Assembly: GCF_032191835.1 (NCBI RefSeq) | Contig: NC_083231.1 | Location: forward strand, 55,056,001 to 55,120,000 | Direction: 5' to 3' | DNA from: Heteronotia binoei | Taxonomy: Eukaryota | DNA: 64,000 nt | Part shown: positions 51,001 to 60,000 of the stretch, piece after piece | How the letters are laid out: each line of letters opens with the position of its first letter | Numbering within the stretch: position 1 is the stretch's first letter | Made by a program: the position numbers

Positions 51001-54000
51001 ATACATTTTTGAAATGGCAATGGCTGTTCAAAAGTAGTACTTAATTGGGCATTACATGCAGAGAATGCTTCATTTTCTGGTGTTTGTTTTTGTAGCCTTT
51101 CCAGACCCATGGAAAGATTGTACACTGGGTCACAGAACCAGATGGAGGAATAGCCACAGAAGTCGGGGGCAGGGTAGCTGAAATAGTTCCTTCTTCTTCC
51201 ACAAGGGCAGTTCCACTGAGGATAGGGGAAGCGGTCTCTCCTCATCCCCTTGTTCTTCCTCATTCCAGTTTACTGCCTCACATACCTCTTCCTCTGTATA
51301 GCTCCTACAACGCCAAGATTAATAATTGGGGGGTGGGGGGAGGGCTGAAAGAACTTCTGGAAAGGAGAGAGAGAAACATAAGAAAATGTCATAGATACTG
51401 CCCATTAAATGCTTAATATTCTTGTGGTATATTTATGCTAACTGTTTATAGAAGCCTTTGAAGTCACAAGTATTGGTTAAAATATACTGCTACAAGAGTC
51501 AGATGTCAAACGCCTGAGATTTAGTTTTTGTTTCCATTTTGGGAAAATAAATGCAATTCATAAGCCAGTACTCCCTTATTAAATGTTGCTATTCTGGTTT
51601 TGTTTACAGAAGTAACACTGATGTTATGAAAATAAAATAACGATAAGGAATCCACTGAAGACAGTAGAACTAAATAGGGATGCTAGAGATCTTCTTCGTG
51701 GTCTCTGTGCAGTCCCACACATGGGTCTTGCCGCAGGCAACGGATCCATTCCTCGGAGCTCCAATAGCTCGTTTATAACGTCTTTTGGCGCGCTTTCCTC
51801 CCGCTCTGGGGAGCAGGCAGCGACCGCGCATGCCTGGAGCGGGGGGAGAGCGCCCCTTCCACTCAGTTTCTTTCCTACCGCCGCCCGGACAACACCTCCC
51901 TCGCTGCGTTCCTCCTTAGCTCGTCTGTTACTTCATCCGCTTCTTTCCTCCTTCACTGGTATCGTATTTCTATCTCTTATATCTTCTCTTTCGTCCCAAA
52001 AAAAAAAACAAAAAAAAAACAAAAAAAAAACCCCGTTCTGCGCTTTCTTTCCCCTTTTCTCCCTTCCCCCCCCTCCCTTGTCCGGGGCGCATGGAAGGGA
52101 AAGTTACCTTCAAAAAGTGCACGCGCTGTGGGACCAAAATCCCTACTACAGACGGCCACAGCCACTGCCTTTTTTGCTTGGGGGAATCTCACCGAGTCGA
52201 CTCCTGCCCTCATTGTGCGAATTTCGGAAAGCAGGCCCGAAAAAACCGCGCGGCAAGGCTCCGGAGTTTCCTGATCGAGTTGTCCTTAAGGGCTATGCCC
52301 ACATCGGGCTCGCCGCCTCCCCAACAACAAGCGGGAGATTCGGCTTCTACGGACGTGTCTCTCGCTAAACAGAAACACAAGTCCGATAAAAAATCTTCGA
52401 AGCACGCCGAGACCGGCCATAAGGCTTCGAAGAAATCGCGCCACCTGGAACCCACGGGTCCGGCGCACAAAAAGTCTCGTCATCCCGGATCGGCCGATTC
52501 GGGCCCGAGGAAACTCCACGCGCACTTGGCTCCCAAGAAGCCTCAGCCTCCAATTTCGACATCGACCTCCATGGATCCTGTGACTCCAACTCAGCCTGCT
52601 CTTCCGCTTGAGTTGACGACTCCGTCGGACGTCATCACCGACATGCCCCAACTGACGCCTCACACATCTACAGCAGTTGAGGTCATACCGGTCCACTCTC
52701 GTTCGCCCTCGGTGCACAGCGTGGTCCCGACCGACTTCCTTGAACCCGATCTTACTAGTGAGTCTACCCAGACCTACCTGAAACCCCCGCTTCGAATCGG
52801 ATCCTTCCGCGATATCGGGATTTCTCCCCTGTATAAGGACCTCCGAGACGTCGGGATTTCTCCCCTGTACAAGGACTCGGCCGTTCAGGCCTCAAACAAG
52901 GGGCGCTCTCGCTCACCCTCACGTCGACTACGATCCCGGTCACCGCTCAAGGCTCGCTCCAGATCACCGCGCCGGCGCCGAGACTCCGACTCCTCTGATT
53001 ATTATCGGGACTATTATGCCCCCAGATACGACCGGCACCACTCTCGCTTTCATCGTCCTTCTCGTTCTCCTTCTCTTGAGGGCTCAGGTTATTCCCCGTA
53101 CCAATACGAGGACTCTCCTAGACCCCGTGATCGACTCCGTGACTTTTCTCGACGACTCCGCGATTCTCCACGCCGTGATTACTCCCGGGATCGGACCCGA
53201 CAGCCACGCCCCCGCGGCTTCGACCATGACCTCTCTTCTCCACCCCGTGACCAAGATCGGACCCGTGAACATGCCTATCCTCGGGATCGGATCCGAGAGC
53301 CGGACTACTCTCGCTATTCCCCTCGACTCCGCGAAAGGCTTCGGGAATCTGTTCGTCACTCTGATCTACAGCGACCCCGGGACCACTACCAGACAGAGGA
53401 CGCTAGACCGCGCACTCCATCAGCCTCGGCCGCGATTGCTCCTCCGGTCTCCACTCCTACAGACCAACCTGCTCAGACGATGAAATCTCAACCTGTTCCT
53501 TCGGACCCGATCCGACCCCCGCACTCTCCCTCGGGTGAGGATTCCCACTCCGACCCGGAATCGTCAGCATCCTCAGACTCCGAGGACCGTCCTGACTCGG
53601 TAGCCTCGGATTCGGTACCACAGCCCCGACTATCTCCATCTGATGCGTCCAAGGCCTATCTCCACCTAATTACAACCATGGCCGAAGCCCTCAACATTAC
53701 TCTTCCGTCGGACTCACCTAAGGTCTCTGACCTTGTACACGACCTCGTGCAAACGGACTTTCCACCGGGCTCGCTTCTTCCCATGCTCCCGGTACACCTC
53801 GAAGGCCTCCGCGAAACCTGGGACAAACCTGCCTCGGTTCCACCTACCGCGAAACGCTTTGACTCTCTCTACAGAGTTCACGCTCCTGAGGCTAAATTTC
53901 TTGCTTCTCATCCGGCGCCCAACTCCATTATCGTGCACTCAGCCACTAAGGCTAAACCATCCAGACATCCGACACCTCCTGACCGTGAAGGCAGGAAATT

Positions 54001-57000: not shown

Positions 57001-60000
57001 CCTGCCTAAGGTTGTCTCCCAGTTCCACTTATCAACCTCAACTTCTCTACCAACGTTCTTCTCCAACCCATCCGACCAGGGACAACGAGCCCTGCATTCC
57101 TTGGACGTTAGAAGGGCGTTATCCTTCTACCTTGATCGTACACAACCTTTCCGTAAGGACCCTAATCTGTTTGTGGCCTACGGAAACCCCCACAGGGGTC
57201 TTAAAATTTCTACCCAACGTCTGTCAAAGTGGGTAGTCAGTGCCATCAGGTTGTGCTACGAACTGGCTAAGCAGCCTTTGCCCGACGGCCTTAAGGGCCA
57301 CTCTACTAGAGCGGTCTCCACGTCTTCGGCCTTTCTACAAGGCGTGTCTCTAGAGGACATTTGTGCGGCTGCATCCTGGTCCTCTCCATCCACGTTCGTC
57401 TCCCACTATGCGATGGACGTTCGTGCGAGACGTGACGCCTCCTTCGGCCAAGCGGTCCTCAGATCCATCTTCCTCTGAAGCCAGGGGTGAGTGCATCCGC
57501 TTCCATCTTTACACTGCAGACCACGTCACATGATGGTTGATTGCGTGATTGCATGTGATTTGATTTTTCCTGTGACTAACCTTTTTCTTTACCAGCACCC
57601 TCCTCCAGTCCATCCAGCTGGCTAGTCACCCATGTGTGGGACTGCACAGAGACCACGAAGAAGATAAACAGGTTGCTTACCTGTAACTGATGATCTTCGA
57701 GTGGTCATCTGTGCAGTCACACACGCCCACCCAGCCTTCCCCGCTGCTGGCCTCTTGTGATTCTTCCGTAAACTTACAGTGTCATTGCCGGCGGCGGCTG
57801 GAAGAAACTGAGTGGAAGGGGCGCTCTCCCCCCGCTCCAGGCATGCGCGGTCGCTGCCTGCTCCCCAGAGCGGGAGGAAAGCGCGCCAAAAGACGTTATA
57901 AACGAGCTATTGGAGCTCCGAGGAATGGATCCGTTGCCTGCGGCAAGACCCATGTGTGTGACTGCACAGATGACCACTCGAAGATCATCAGTTACAGGTA
58001 AGCAACCTGTTTATCCTTCTGTTTCTAGAAATGAAATCTCTTTGGGGTCTATCTTTAGTGACATGATAGTTGCTGCATAATGGCTCTTCCCTCTACACTC
58101 AGCAATTCTGGAAGTAATCAAATAGAACAGGGGTGGTCAATGGCATGGCCGATGGCTGGGGCTGATGGGAGTTGGCCACCCCTGAAATAGAAGAAATCTA
58201 CATTGGGTTGAATTTTAGCAGTGCCCACATAAAAGGCTGGTTTAAGTATGTGTTTTTTTCCTATTGCTCCTTCCCATAGCCTCTGAACCTTAAAATGCTG
58301 GTTCTGAAGGTTGTGGGATTTGTAGAAATGAAAAGCCACACCTTCACTGAGGAGGTGAAAGCAATCTGGGTTACTCCTCTCTGCTTGTTCCATCAGTGGA
58401 GCCCTTTTGATCTAATCAGTTTTGTGGTTTGCAGTGAGAGAGGTTGCAAAAATGTTGTAAGCCATGCAGGCAACCATACTTATCACAGATTAAAATATTT
58501 TAATGTCATATTTTACTGTCATATTTTAATGTCAAATCTAGACTTCATAAAAATAGAATATGTATAAAAGGCTTGCATTTTATAAAACATGCAAAAAGAG
58601 CCATGGCTAGGGTCTCACCTTTGAATATGTCTCTTGCAGATACTCCACTTGGCTTCTTTGTGATTCAAGTACTGGCAGATGATATGGACCTGGGCCCACC
58701 TCTTCACTACAGTTTTGCTGAGGGTGGTAATCCTGGAAGGAAATTTGCCATTGACAAGTACAAGGGAATAATCACATTGGTGCAGGCATTAGACTTTGAA
58801 GAAATTGCTCAGCTTGAACTGTTGATCAGAGTTTCAGATTCTGTGCATCAAACCACAGAAAAACTTTTAGTCCTTATATCTGATATAAATGATAATCCAC
58901 CAGTATTTACTCAGGATGCATATCAGGTAAGAACAAAAATATTGCCTTGGAAGCTTTTATATGTAATACTTCTGTCGTGTGTGCTTGAACTACTTTAATC
59001 TGTTTTCATTTCAGGTGGTGATACCAGAACTCACAGCTATAAATGATTCTCTCTTAACTGTGTGTGCCACAGACAGAGATTCAGGGAATAATGGAAAGAT
59101 ATCCTACAGAATTCTCTCATCCTCTGATGCATTTTCTGTTGATCCAAAAAATGGTGAGTCTGCATGCATTTGGTATGGAATGTGCATTATGGATTGTATG
59201 ATTGTACATCCACATAGCCACATGTAATTACAGTAGTCACTGGAGAAAGTCAAACTGTAGATTTCAGCTAGAATAGACATGAAACACAGGTAGAAAAACC
59301 AGCCATGTTAAAGCTAAAAGACAATGATATTGGAAATCTTTTACCTTCAGGCTGCCTGCAAAGCACAGTGACAGACTTCCATGCTGTCCCTATTCCATGA
59401 AAAATGGCAAAAGTTTAAAATTAGACTTCTCTTTTAGAATGCTGTTCAGCACAAATTCTTGGAATTAGTGAATGGATTTTGTGGAAGGGATTGTTGCTGA
59501 TCCTGAAAGTCAAAGTACCTTTAGGAATGGCATTAGATATGGCACAATGGAATTATCAGAATCCCATCCCCAGTTATGAACTCTTGTTTCATGTGTGCAG
59601 GAGTTTGCAAAAAAAGGGGAGGGTCAGGTCTGCCAGTTCTCCTTTTCCTCTGCAGCCAACTGTACTGTTCTTCCAGAAGATTACCTTATCTGCAGGAACT
59701 TTTTTTGGTTGCTGTGGAAAATATCAGAAAAGATTGCTTAAAACATTCTTGGTAGCTTGGAAAACCTTATTCTACTAAAATGTATAACAAACATCTCTGC
59801 CATGTTTGTTTGTTTTTTAATTTACACATAGTAGCCTATATTTTCAGGTTTGAAATGTTTTCAAATTGACAGGTGTTCCTTCCTCTTCACAGAGCACAGG
59901 AACAAAATAAACTGAAGCATGTTTCATCAGTTCATTTATCCATTCATTTAATTCCACCGTTCTCCCCAAATGGGGACCCTATGTGGCTCACTACAAAAAC

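What the first reader, a model, noticed from the sequence alone, without database searches (positions are those of the whole stretch)
51689..58015. Apparently intact, very young DIRS1 element: candidate active copy
Seen: three long ORFs without disruptions, about 157 bp of ITR identical between ends (51716-51872), ICR exactly complementary to both termini, and dense CpG in a CpG-poor host background. Inference: a recent insertion that may be polymorphic and mobile. It sits sense-oriented in a developmental gene.
Basis: partly seen in the sequence, partly recalled or inferred. Interest (0 to 1): 0.68.

Follow-up and report, generated by a model that had tools for sequence, protein, structure and literature searches.

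The report
Intact DIRS1 retrotransposon in gecko gene
A complete, undecayed copy of a DIRS1-type retrotransposon, a well-known kind of mobile element, sits inside an intron of the dachsous-2 cadherin gene of a gecko and shows no sign of decay since it inserted.

Summary
Window 51689-58015 (+) is a 6327-bp DIRS1-like tyrosine-recombinase retrotransposon. It has inverted terminal repeats with a 157-nt exact core. A 97-nt internal complementary region is exactly complementary to both termini (38 + 62 nt, 3-nt overlap), and ATC stands at both ends with no target duplication. Three open frames are present: LAP2alpha-like gag, RT/RNase H/methyltransferase, and a long tyrosine-recombinase frame overlapping pol. 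CpG o/e is 0.865 against 0.11-0.16 in the flanks. The host is the gecko Heteronotia binoei. The element lies in sense orientation in a 7667-nt intron of protocadherin-23 (DCHS2) and makes up 6327 nt of it.

Two caveats apply. Zero differences in 257 paired repeat positions bound the age only to about 3-7 Myr, because squamate rates are slow. The recombinase frame has no AUG in its first 249 codons and shares its frame with gag across a single UGA, so how it is translated is open.

Copy number, polymorphism and transcription could not be checked, because no gecko genome collection was available. This is a new member of a known kind. The architecture, including the long pol/recombinase overlap, matches published Anolis and Xenopus elements. 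Interest is modest.

The parts
51689..58015 (+). Whole DIRS1-like element, 6327 bp. One of the two terminal ATC triplets is attributable to the target.
   Evidence: GC and CpG step; limits of the ICR/terminus complementarity.
51689..51872 (+). Left ITR: divergent part 51689-51715 (27 nt), conserved part 51716-51872 (157 nt, exact). The left terminus 51689-51726 is complementary to the left ICR. A TATA-like TTTATAA lies near 51774 (read from sequence; a promoter role is inferred).
51998..52031 (+). A-rich microsatellite (AAAAAAAAAAC x3) in the leader between the ITR and ORF1.
52091..54604 (+). ORF1, gag-like, 837 aa, ending in TGA followed by C. It has a conserved Zn-finger-like N-terminus, an Arg/Ser-rich low-complexity middle and a LAP2alpha-like C-terminal domain.
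   Evidence: (907 relatives at E<=1e-3, best 47% identity, 823 aa).
52091..52288 (+). ORF1 residues 1-66: Cys/His-rich motif conserved in relatives (39-61% identity over 39-67 residues in 9 of 22 proteins compared).
   Evidence: weak Pfam Zn_ribbon_6 E 0.12.
52806..52876 (+). 36-nt tandem duplication inside ORF1 (two 35-nt copies, 89% alike). It is older than the insertion.
53633..54505 (+). LAP2alpha-like domain of ORF1 (residues about 515-805).
   Evidence: A profile of ORF1's C-terminus plus 30 relatives hits PDB 2v0x (LAP2alpha) at E 1.9e-17. 17 of 31 members hit PF11560. ORF1 alone hits it only at E 0.13.
54381..56480 (+). ORF2, pol, 699 aa, +1 frame relative to ORF1, overlapping ORF1 by 224 nt. 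Domains: RT 54867-55349, RNase H 55683-55952, Dam-like methyltransferase 56061-56231.
   Evidence: Pfam RVT_1 E 1.7e-23, RT_RNaseH 5.7e-8, Dam 1.1e-4 (22.3 bits, below the 28.1 cut-off). YIDD and the D441/E473/D498/D549 set are present. The ORF agrees in 84 of 84 columns where all 18 relatives agree, and in 107 of 108 at >=90%. The profile's best solved match is Ty3 RT 4ol8, E 1.2e-40.
54605..57478 (+). ORF3 frame (tyrosine recombinase), same frame as ORF1 and open from ORF1's stop to 57478. Mechanical start is TTG 54653 (941 aa). The first ATG is at 55400; the last ATG before the recombinase domain is at 56300.
   Evidence: 0 stops in 583 codons over ORF2 where 21-23 are expected (P about 1e-10). 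Relatives of 935-1035 aa cover 87-98%.
56504..57478 (+). Recombinase proper, in the non-overlapping 3' part. The SAM-like core-binding domain is at 56504-56692. Catalytic R, K, H-x-x-R, W and Y codons lie between 56912 and 57409.
   Evidence: Pfam Phage_int_SAM_1, 23.3 bits against a cut-off of 22.3. R187, K219, H316, R319 and W342 are invariant and Y352 is at >=90% in 16 sequences (mapped). 5 of 16 members hit PF00589. Weak Tre/Cre matches, E 8.5e-4 to 0.03.
57628..57724 (+). Internal complementary region, 97 nt: left ICR 57628-57665, right ICR 57663-57724, 3-nt circular junction 57663-57665.
57802..57985 (+). Right ITR: conserved part 57802-57958, divergent part 57959-57985 (gapless register).
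57986..58015 (+). Right extension (about 30 nt), complementary only to the right ICR. It contains a 6-bp hairpin at 57994-58010 and a splice-donor-like CAG|GTAAGC.
   Evidence: The hairpin is in the MFE fold, but the region's z-score is only -0.32.
50973..58639 (+). Host intron of protocadherin-23 (DCHS2), 7667 nt: 716 nt, then the element, then 624 nt. Flanking exons are 50842-50972 and 58640-58926.
   Evidence: tblastn of P0121, read exon by exon; splice sites read.

Best explanation
This is a structurally complete DIRS1-like (tyrosine-recombinase) retrotransposon. It inserted, within roughly the last few million years at most, into an intron of the DCHS2 (protocadherin-23) gene of the gecko Heteronotia binoei, in the gene's orientation.

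The mechanism below is inferred from the family, not shown here. An RNA starting inside the left ITR and ending inside the right ITR is copied by the element's RT/RNase H. The missing left ITR is restored from the right ITR. The two outermost ends are restored by annealing to the ICR, which carries both ends side by side. The recombinase then exchanges strands between the 3-nt junction (ATC) of the restored element and an identical ATC in the target. That leaves ATC at both ends and no target-site duplication.

The gag-like ORF1 carries the LAP2alpha-type domain. The recombinase frame overlaps pol for 1876 nt and is kept open by selection.
For: Shown:
- ITR, ICR, right extension, 3-nt junction overlap, and ATC at both ends with unrelated flanks (GCTAGAG|ATC...ATC|CTTCTG).
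- RT, RNase H and Dam-like domains in ORF2 with all 84 family-invariant columns.
- The recombinase pentad plus Tyr.
- The LAP2alpha-like gag, PDB 2v0x at E 1.9e-17 by profile.
- A pol/recombinase overlap with 0 stops where 21-23 are expected, while the third frame shows 28 observed against 26 expected.
- No integrase or protease family in any ORF.
- Host and gene: the last exon is 100% identical to NCBI protocadherin-23 of H. binoei. The intron is mapped.
- Recency: 0 differences in 157 + 38 + 62 paired positions holding 15 CpGs per copy; bound; CpG o/e 0.865 against 0.11-0.16.

From papers: the architecture and the 3-bp junction model (PMC3266345 passages). Restoration of the left repeat from the right one and of the ends from the ICR, the ICR being essential, and the trinucleotide at both ends (PMC7192593, Introduction and section 26).
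Against: - No census of sibling copies, no population data and no transcripts: nothing shows that this copy or its family moves today.
- The age bound is loose, 2.8-7.3 Myr at 95%.
- The methyltransferase match is below Pfam's cut-off.
- This protein itself does not reach PF00589; only 5 of 16 aligned members do. The solved-structure match to Cre/Tre is weak.
- The fold-level test could not be run.
- The recombinase frame lacks an AUG in its first 249 codons.
- The best protein relatives are only 53% (pol), 47% (gag) and 36% (ORF3) identical, so no close sibling is documented anywhere I could search.
Confidence: 0.85

Rival explanations
1. The copy is structurally complete but not autonomous. 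The recombinase cannot be made from this copy, because its long frame has no AUG near its head and is cut off from gag by a stop. The copy could then move only with proteins supplied by sibling copies.
For: The first ATG in the ORF3 frame is at codon 250 of the 941-aa frame. One stop separates ORF1 and ORF3 in the same frame. The two RefSeq relatives among the 23 long recombinase-frame proteins examined (X. laevis P0396, Pogona P0391) have Met as first residue. So do the other 21, but in gene calls from contigs that Met may stand for another start codon. [quoted passage not shown]
Against: The frame is open from the very stop of ORF1: 0 stops in the 265 codons before the first ATG, where 9.5-10.3 are expected (P 3e-5 to 7e-5). 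That argues the stretch is translated in the lineage. An ATG at 56300 lies just upstream of the whole recombinase domain. The repeats show no detectable mutation, so a private defect would have to be very recent or inherited from the source copy.
Confidence: 0.25
2. It is an old, fixed insertion that only looks young, because the repeats are kept identical by gene conversion and the CpGs by lack of germline methylation.
For: CpG retention could in principle reflect hypomethylation. The clock from the repeats is coarse. No population or cross-species data were available.
Against: Three separate kinds of evidence agree. All 257 paired positions are identical, including ICR/terminus pairs 5.9 kb apart. 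About 5.6 kb of coding sequence has no stop or frameshift, with 84 of 84 invariant pol columns. ORF1 shows no TpG/CpA excess (0.82/0.85, against 1.24-1.37 in the flanks). The immediately adjacent intron has CpG o/e 0.18 and 0.04, so the locus is not a hypomethylated domain.
Confidence: 0.07
3. It is a domesticated or exonised element that now serves DCHS2, as the LAP2alpha exon of TMPO did.
For: The element lies in sense orientation in an intron and carries a LAP2alpha-type gag, two polyadenylation hexamers on the + strand (54299, 55841) and a donor-like motif near its 3' end. LAP2alpha arose from such a gag (PMC4495291 passages).
Against: All transposition-specific non-coding parts (ITRs, ICR, extension) are perfect. 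Domestication would not preserve them. The annotated host protein runs from the exon before the element to the exon after it without using any of it.
Confidence: 0.02

Closest known systems
AcDIRS1 / AcDIRS2 of Anolis carolinensis (Piednoel et al. 2011, Table 3; passages seen)
   Same: Same superfamily and nearly the same repeat geometry. Anolis: 5938-5997 bp, divergent ITR 26, conserved ITR 136-140, right extension 26-28, ICR 39-40 + 58-60. This element: 6327 bp, 27, 157, about 30, 38 + 62. AcDIRS2 also has the long pol/recombinase overlap.
   Different: The terminal triplets differ: ATC/ATC with junction GAT here, against CTT/CAT and TTT/TGT in Anolis. 23 of the 28 published elements begin and end with NTT. 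The nearest named squamate proteins are 47% (pol, Pogona) and 36% (ORF3, Sceloporus; 52% in the recombinase domain) identical.
DIRS-1 of Dictyostelium discoideum
   Same: ITRs with non-identical outer ends, and an ICR exactly complementary to both termini (33 + 55 nt there, 38 + 62 nt here). The set gag / recombinase / RT-RH-MT is the same. In that element the ICR has been shown experimentally to be essential (PMC7192593).
   Different: 4.8 kb against 6.3 kb, and a different host kingdom. No sequence comparison was made. Its cDNA intermediates were found to be mostly linear and single-stranded, so the circular form remains a model.
Xenopus DIRS-like families (PMC9210276, passages)
   Same: Three ORFs with ORF2/ORF3 overlap, a LAP2alpha domain predicted in ORF1 of all families, a DAM/MT domain, ITRs of about 120 bp, and lICR + rICR.
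   Different: The X. laevis long recombinase protein P0396 is 29% identical overall and 43% in the recombinase domain, and it starts with Met at the head of the long frame.
PAT, Ngaro and VIPER tyrosine-recombinase retrotransposons
   Same: An RT/RNase H plus a tyrosine recombinase, with no integrase.
   Different: Those have split direct repeats or SIRE-derived LTRs, and Ngaro and VIPER lack the methyltransferase (PMC3266345, PMC7192593). This element has ITRs plus an ICR and a Dam-like domain, so it is not one of them.
Ty3/gypsy LTR retrotransposons
   Same: The RT/RNase H profile's best solved matches are Ty3 (4ol8 at E 1.2e-40; 7q5b).
   Different: No LTRs, no integrase or protease family in any ORF, and inverted rather than direct terminal repeats.
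LAP2alpha C-terminal domain (TMPO), PDB 2v0x
   Same: The C-terminal domain of ORF1 and its relatives matches it at E 1.9e-17 over profile positions 22-238. The domain is reported to derive from a DIRS1 gag (PMC4495291).
   Different: That is a domesticated mammalian exon. Here the domain is part of an element with all its transposition parts.

Membership tests
DIRS1-like retrotransposons | Inverted terminal repeats with a strictly complementary inner part and a divergent outer part | tested here: met
   157-nt exact core and 27-nt divergent outer part.
DIRS1-like retrotransposons | Two adjacent internal complementary regions near the 3' end, each exactly complementary to one terminus and overlapping on a 3-bp circular junction | tested here: met
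   57628-57665 and 57663-57724, 38 and 62 nt, both 100%, 3-nt overlap.
DIRS1-like retrotransposons | Right extension complementary only to the right ICR | tested here: met
   About 30 nt, 57986-58015.
DIRS1-like retrotransposons | No target-site duplication; the same trinucleotide at both ends, matching the junction | tested here: met
   ATC at 51689-51691 and 58013-58015, junction GAT at 57663-57665, flanks not duplicated. The triplet is not the usual NTT (PMC3266345).
DIRS1-like retrotransposons | Pol with RT, RNase H and a methyltransferase domain, in that order | tested here: met
   RVT_1 and RT_RNaseH are above their cut-offs. Dam scores 22.3 bits, below the 28.1 cut-off, but 9 of 19 aligned members match it (best 5.5e-9).
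DIRS1-like retrotransposons | [quoted passage not shown] | tested here: met
   SAM-like domain above its cut-off. R, K, HxxR, W and Y are conserved. 5 of 16 members hit PF00589. No rve or protease hit.
DIRS1-like retrotransposons | Gag-like ORF1 (LAP2alpha-type in vertebrate elements) | tested here: met
   Profile against PDB 2v0x at E 1.9e-17; 17 of 31 members hit PF11560. ORF1 alone reaches only E 0.13.
DIRS1-like retrotransposons | Long overlap of the pol and recombinase frames (present in about half of described elements, so not required) | tested here: met
   1876-nt overlap; 0 stops against 21-23 expected.
Currently active copy | Near-identical sibling copies elsewhere in the genome | not testable with these tools
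   No gecko genome collection was available. There is no other copy or relic in the 64-kb window at DNA or protein level. The exact ORF1 and ORF2 proteins are not in the protein collection.
Currently active copy | Insertion polymorphic among individuals or lineages | not testable with these tools
   No population or second-haplotype data.
Currently active copy | Transcripts and proteins of the element | not testable with these tools
   No expression data.
Currently active copy | All coding and cis-acting parts free of decay | tested here: inconclusive
   There are no stops or frameshifts, the repeats are perfect and the invariant residues are kept. But the head of the recombinase frame has no AUG.

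The most novel reading that the evidence does not exclude
In this gecko lineage the recombinase is not made from its own start codon. It is made as a Gag-recombinase fusion by read-through of the single UGA that ends ORF1. Gag and the 958-codon frame that follows are one frame. The stop is UGA followed by C, which I recall, from no call, to be the leakiest context. There is no AUG for 249 codons. The 265 codons before the first AUG hold no stop where about 10 are expected. Pol would then be the out-of-frame product, a reversal of the usual gag-pol logic of retroelements.
Probability: 0.2. Interest if true: 0.45.

Novelty: new member of a known kind. Interest (0 to 1): 0.3.

Why it matters
It matters modestly.

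1. It gives a clean, fully annotated reference copy of a DIRS1 lineage in a gecko. No protein closer than 53% (pol) was found among 5.8 billion sequences. My searches of the open literature listed no paper that held both DIRS and one of three other gecko taxa (Gekko japonicus, Eublepharis, Paroedura, top 12 of 112 seen).

2. H. binoei is a complex of sexual chromosome races that diversified about 6 Myr ago, plus young triploid parthenogens (PMC1942116 passages). The age bound of under 3-7 Myr means this insertion may differ among those lineages. It could serve as a marker and as an entry point to transposon dynamics in sexual versus clonal genomes.

3. A sense-oriented, gag-carrying DIRS1 in an intron is the starting configuration from which mammalian LAP2alpha is thought to have arisen. 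Here it can be seen before any exonisation.

4. The frame arrangement raises a testable question about how DIRS1 recombinases are translated.

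Tried and rejected
- **Other copies or relics in the window.** Self-blastn and tblastn of the three ORFs found none outside the element.
- **Other coding transposons nearby.** Of 150 open frames of at least 50 aa taken from 29.3-51.7 kb and 58.1-58.8 kb, 149 have no Pfam family and 1 is a cadherin exon. In all, 191 of the 401 open frames outside the element were scanned.
- **Fused gag + recombinase proteins in other squamates as proof of one continuous frame.** P0390 (Sceloporus), P0261 and P0310 lack about 192 codons (window 54412 to 55007) relative to this element. P0400 (Pantherophis) lacks about 353. Part of pol's conserved N-terminal region lies in the missing stretch, so these look like gene-model introns. 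I rejected them as evidence.
- **Relatives' long recombinase proteins beginning inside gag's tail.** ORF1 residues 700-837 against the first 260 residues of 76 proteins gave only E 0.42 and 0.83.
- **An RNA structure after ORF1's stop that might drive read-through.** z-score +1.10, none.
- **A 3' hairpin as primer**, as noted for DIRS-1 in PMC7192593 section 26. A 6-bp hairpin is present, but the region's z-score is -0.32, so this is not evidence.
- **ORF 51721-52368 (215 aa) starting in the ITR.** No family found; taken as a by-product of C-rich sequence.
- **Rfam over the whole window.** Only two tRNA-like hits, both outside the element.
- **Names for the best unnamed protein hits.** None were held, and I did not pursue them.
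- **Structure prediction of the recombinase, and the Atlas.** Both were unavailable (76, 77).
- **A paper on read-through in DIRS1.** 0 papers hold 'DIRS1', 'readthrough', 'tyrosine recombinase' and 'gag' together.

Full report
**What is there.** The window holds no N, and I do not take it for human. A 6.3-kb block at 52-58 kb stands out from a 38-46% GC background, with 52-57% GC and a strong C-over-G skew. CpG o/e is 0.865 in 51689-58015, against 0.157 upstream and 0.108 downstream.

The repeats found by the repeat finder are these:
- Inverted arms 51704-51872 / 57802-57970, 169 nt at 99%.
- 57628-57665, the exact reverse complement of 51689-51726 (38 nt).
- 57663-57724, the exact reverse complement of 57954-58015 (62 nt).

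A script adds three points. The only mismatch within the 169-nt arms (51715/57959) is reproduced in the two ICR halves, so it is encoded by the element and is not decay.

ATC stands at both ends, and the flanks (GCTAGAG| and |CTTCTG) are not duplicated.

**Genes.** ORF1 (52091-54604, 837 aa) has no Pfam family at E<=0.01. It does have 907 relatives at E<=1e-3 in the representative library, 69 of them at E<=1e-30; the best is 47% identical and 823 aa long. Its conserved parts are a Cys/His-rich N-terminus and a C-terminal domain. A profile of that domain with 30 relatives matches the solved LAP2alpha domain 2v0x at E 1.9e-17, and 17 of the 31 members hit PF11560. This agrees with reports that LAP2alpha derives from DIRS1 gag (PMC4495291, passages) and that Xenopus DIRS ORF1s all carry it (PMC9210276, passages).

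ORF2 (54381-56480, 699 aa) carries RVT_1 (E 1.7e-23), RT_RNaseH (5.7e-8) and a Dam-like stretch (1.1e-4, below the cut-off). It spans the full length of 18 relatives. It keeps YIDD and the RNase H acidic residues, and it agrees in 84 of 84 columns where all 18 agree and 107 of 108 where at least 90% agree. 9 of the 19 aligned members match Dam. The profile's best solved matches are Ty3 RT.

The third frame is open from ORF1's stop to 57478. Its recognisable recombinase part lies wholly downstream of ORF2. A SAM-like domain sits at 56504-56692. R, K, H-x-x-R and W are invariant and Tyr is at >=90% in a 16-sequence alignment. 5 of the 16 members hit PF00589, and there are weak Tre/Cre matches.

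In that alignment the query agrees in 25 of 27 columns where all 15 others agree. One exception is an artefact of my truncated query's first residue. The other is a one-column gap. The query start I used (56354) is an in-frame TTA that I had mistaken for an ATG; the nearest upstream ATG is at 56300.

**The overlap is real and known.** Over ORF2 the third frame has 0 stops in 583 codons, where ORF2's own codon-position composition predicts 21-23 (P about 1e-10). The remaining frame has 28 observed against 26 expected, which validates the null. Relatives of 935-1035 aa cover 87-98% of the 941-aa frame. Piednoel et al. 2011 (passages) describe exactly this arrangement: a long pol/recombinase overlap in half of 28 elements, including Anolis AcDIRS2, with the catalytic domain in the non-overlapping 3' end. 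They also describe the 3-bp junction, the right extension, and the divergent and conserved ITR parts. The repeat geometry here (27 / 157 / about 30; ICR 38 + 62) is close to that of the Anolis elements (26 / 136-140 / 26-28; 39-40 + 58-60). The terminal triplet ATC departs from the usual NTT.

**An open point.** ORF1 and the recombinase frame are the same frame, separated by one stop (TGA followed by C). The first ATG in the frame is at codon 250. The 265 codons before it hold no stop where 9.5-10.3 are expected (P 3e-5 to 7e-5). Two RefSeq relatives carry a Met at the first residue of a long protein of this kind.

Three readings remain: read-through of the gag stop, non-AUG initiation, or a copy that lacks the family's usual start. 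Several checks gave no support either way:
- There is no stimulatory RNA fold after the stop.
- Relatives' N-termini do not resemble gag's tail.
- The fused gag + recombinase gene models in Sceloporus, Pantherophis and others lack 192-353 codons relative to this element, so they look like modelled introns.
- No paper in the library holds the four terms.

**Host and position.** The last exon (60189-62822 by tblastn) is 100% identical to NCBI protocadherin-23 of Heteronotia binoei. Other sources name the orthologue dachsous cadherin-related 2 (taxonomy). I mapped that protein onto the window exon by exon with tblastn. I printed only HSPs of at least 90% identity, so weaker pieces, and with them residues 1140-1286, were dropped. 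I left the joined-exon step out.

The element lies in the intron 50973-58639, with donor AAA|GTAAGT and acceptor TTGCAG|AT. It accounts for 6327 of the intron's 7667 nt and has the gene's orientation. The annotated protein skips it. That DCHS2 is a developmental gene is recalled knowledge, not a call.

**Age.** In the DIRS-1 model the left repeat is restored from the right one and the ends from the ICR (PMC7192593, Introduction and section 26 read). All these pairs should therefore be identical at insertion. They still are: 0 differences in 257 paired positions with 15 CpGs per copy.

With the squamate rate of 7.7-8e-10 per site per year (passages), the 95% upper bound is 7.3 Myr. It falls to 3.6 or 2.8 Myr if CpGs mutate 10 or 15 times faster; that factor is recalled. 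Only about 5-11% of CpGs would be lost in 3.5-7 Myr. CpG density therefore shows non-equilibrium but is a poor fine clock.

The open 5.6 kb of coding sequence argues, by inference, for the lower part of that range. The bound is of the order of the roughly 6-Myr diversification of the H. binoei sexual races (PMC1942116, passages).

**What stayed unchecked.**
- Copy number, divergence of siblings, polymorphism, transcripts and methylation.
- Supplements were closed. The additional files of PMC3266345 and the supplementary tables of PMC9210276 may hold ORF frames and start codons that bear on the open point.

**Verdict.** This is a canonical DIRS1-like retrotransposon, complete and undecayed, in a DCHS2 intron of a gecko. 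It is a new member of a known kind and of modest interest.

Noticed in passing
window 14402-14473, 45651-45723, 29635-29829: Two tRNA-like sequences (Rfam tRNA at 37.8 and 58.2 bits; ARAGORN calls them Ala-GGC and Pro-GGG) lie inside mutually similar repeats (14408-14484 against 45658-45732 at 86%; 29635-29829 against 45659-45867 at 71%). They are probably heads of a tRNA-derived SINE family rather than tRNA genes.
   Followed up: partly
window 15006-15447, 43336-43758, 41990-42445, 30518-30674, 31621-31767: An interspersed repeat family of about 440 bp (85% between the two longest copies, in inverted orientation). It lies in the GC-richer stretches of the DCHS2 introns. No Pfam family was found in the open frames there.
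   Followed up: partly
window 2886-3080, 9409-9589, 13305-13475, 14102-14226, 31485-31617, 48423-48743: Six self-complementary (palindromic) stretches of 125-323 nt at 72-91% identity, resembling hairpin-forming miniature elements.
   Followed up: no
window 57995-58003 (inside the element's right extension): A near-consensus 5' splice-site motif, CAG|GTAAGC, lies in the host gene's orientation. On the same strand inside the element there are two polyadenylation hexamers (ATTAAA at 54299, AATAAA at 55841). They could disturb DCHS2 transcripts. The annotated protein shows no use of them.
   Followed up: partly
proteins P0005, P0390, P0400, P0006, P0007: Public annotations of other reptiles file DIRS1 proteins as host genes. 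P0005, named 'DNA repair protein RAD51 homolog 2 isoform X1' (Pelodiscus), is 48% identical to this pol over 88% of its length. Several 'uncharacterized protein LOC...' models join gag-like and recombinase-like or pol-like parts into one protein.
   Followed up: partly
window 51706-51720, 57633-57647, 57710-57724, 57954-57968: A 15-nt motif (TGTGCAGTC[C/A]CACAC or its complement) is shared by both termini and both ICR halves. It matches the four-way conserved boundary sequence that Piednoel et al. describe. I read it.
   Followed up: partly
window 1-64000: The window covers the 3' half of DCHS2 (residues about 711-3269 of the 3269-aa protein), including very large exons (3942-4967, 18939-19859, 28153-29076, 60189-62822). 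Residues 1140-1286 were not placed by HSPs of at least 90% identity.
   Followed up: partly
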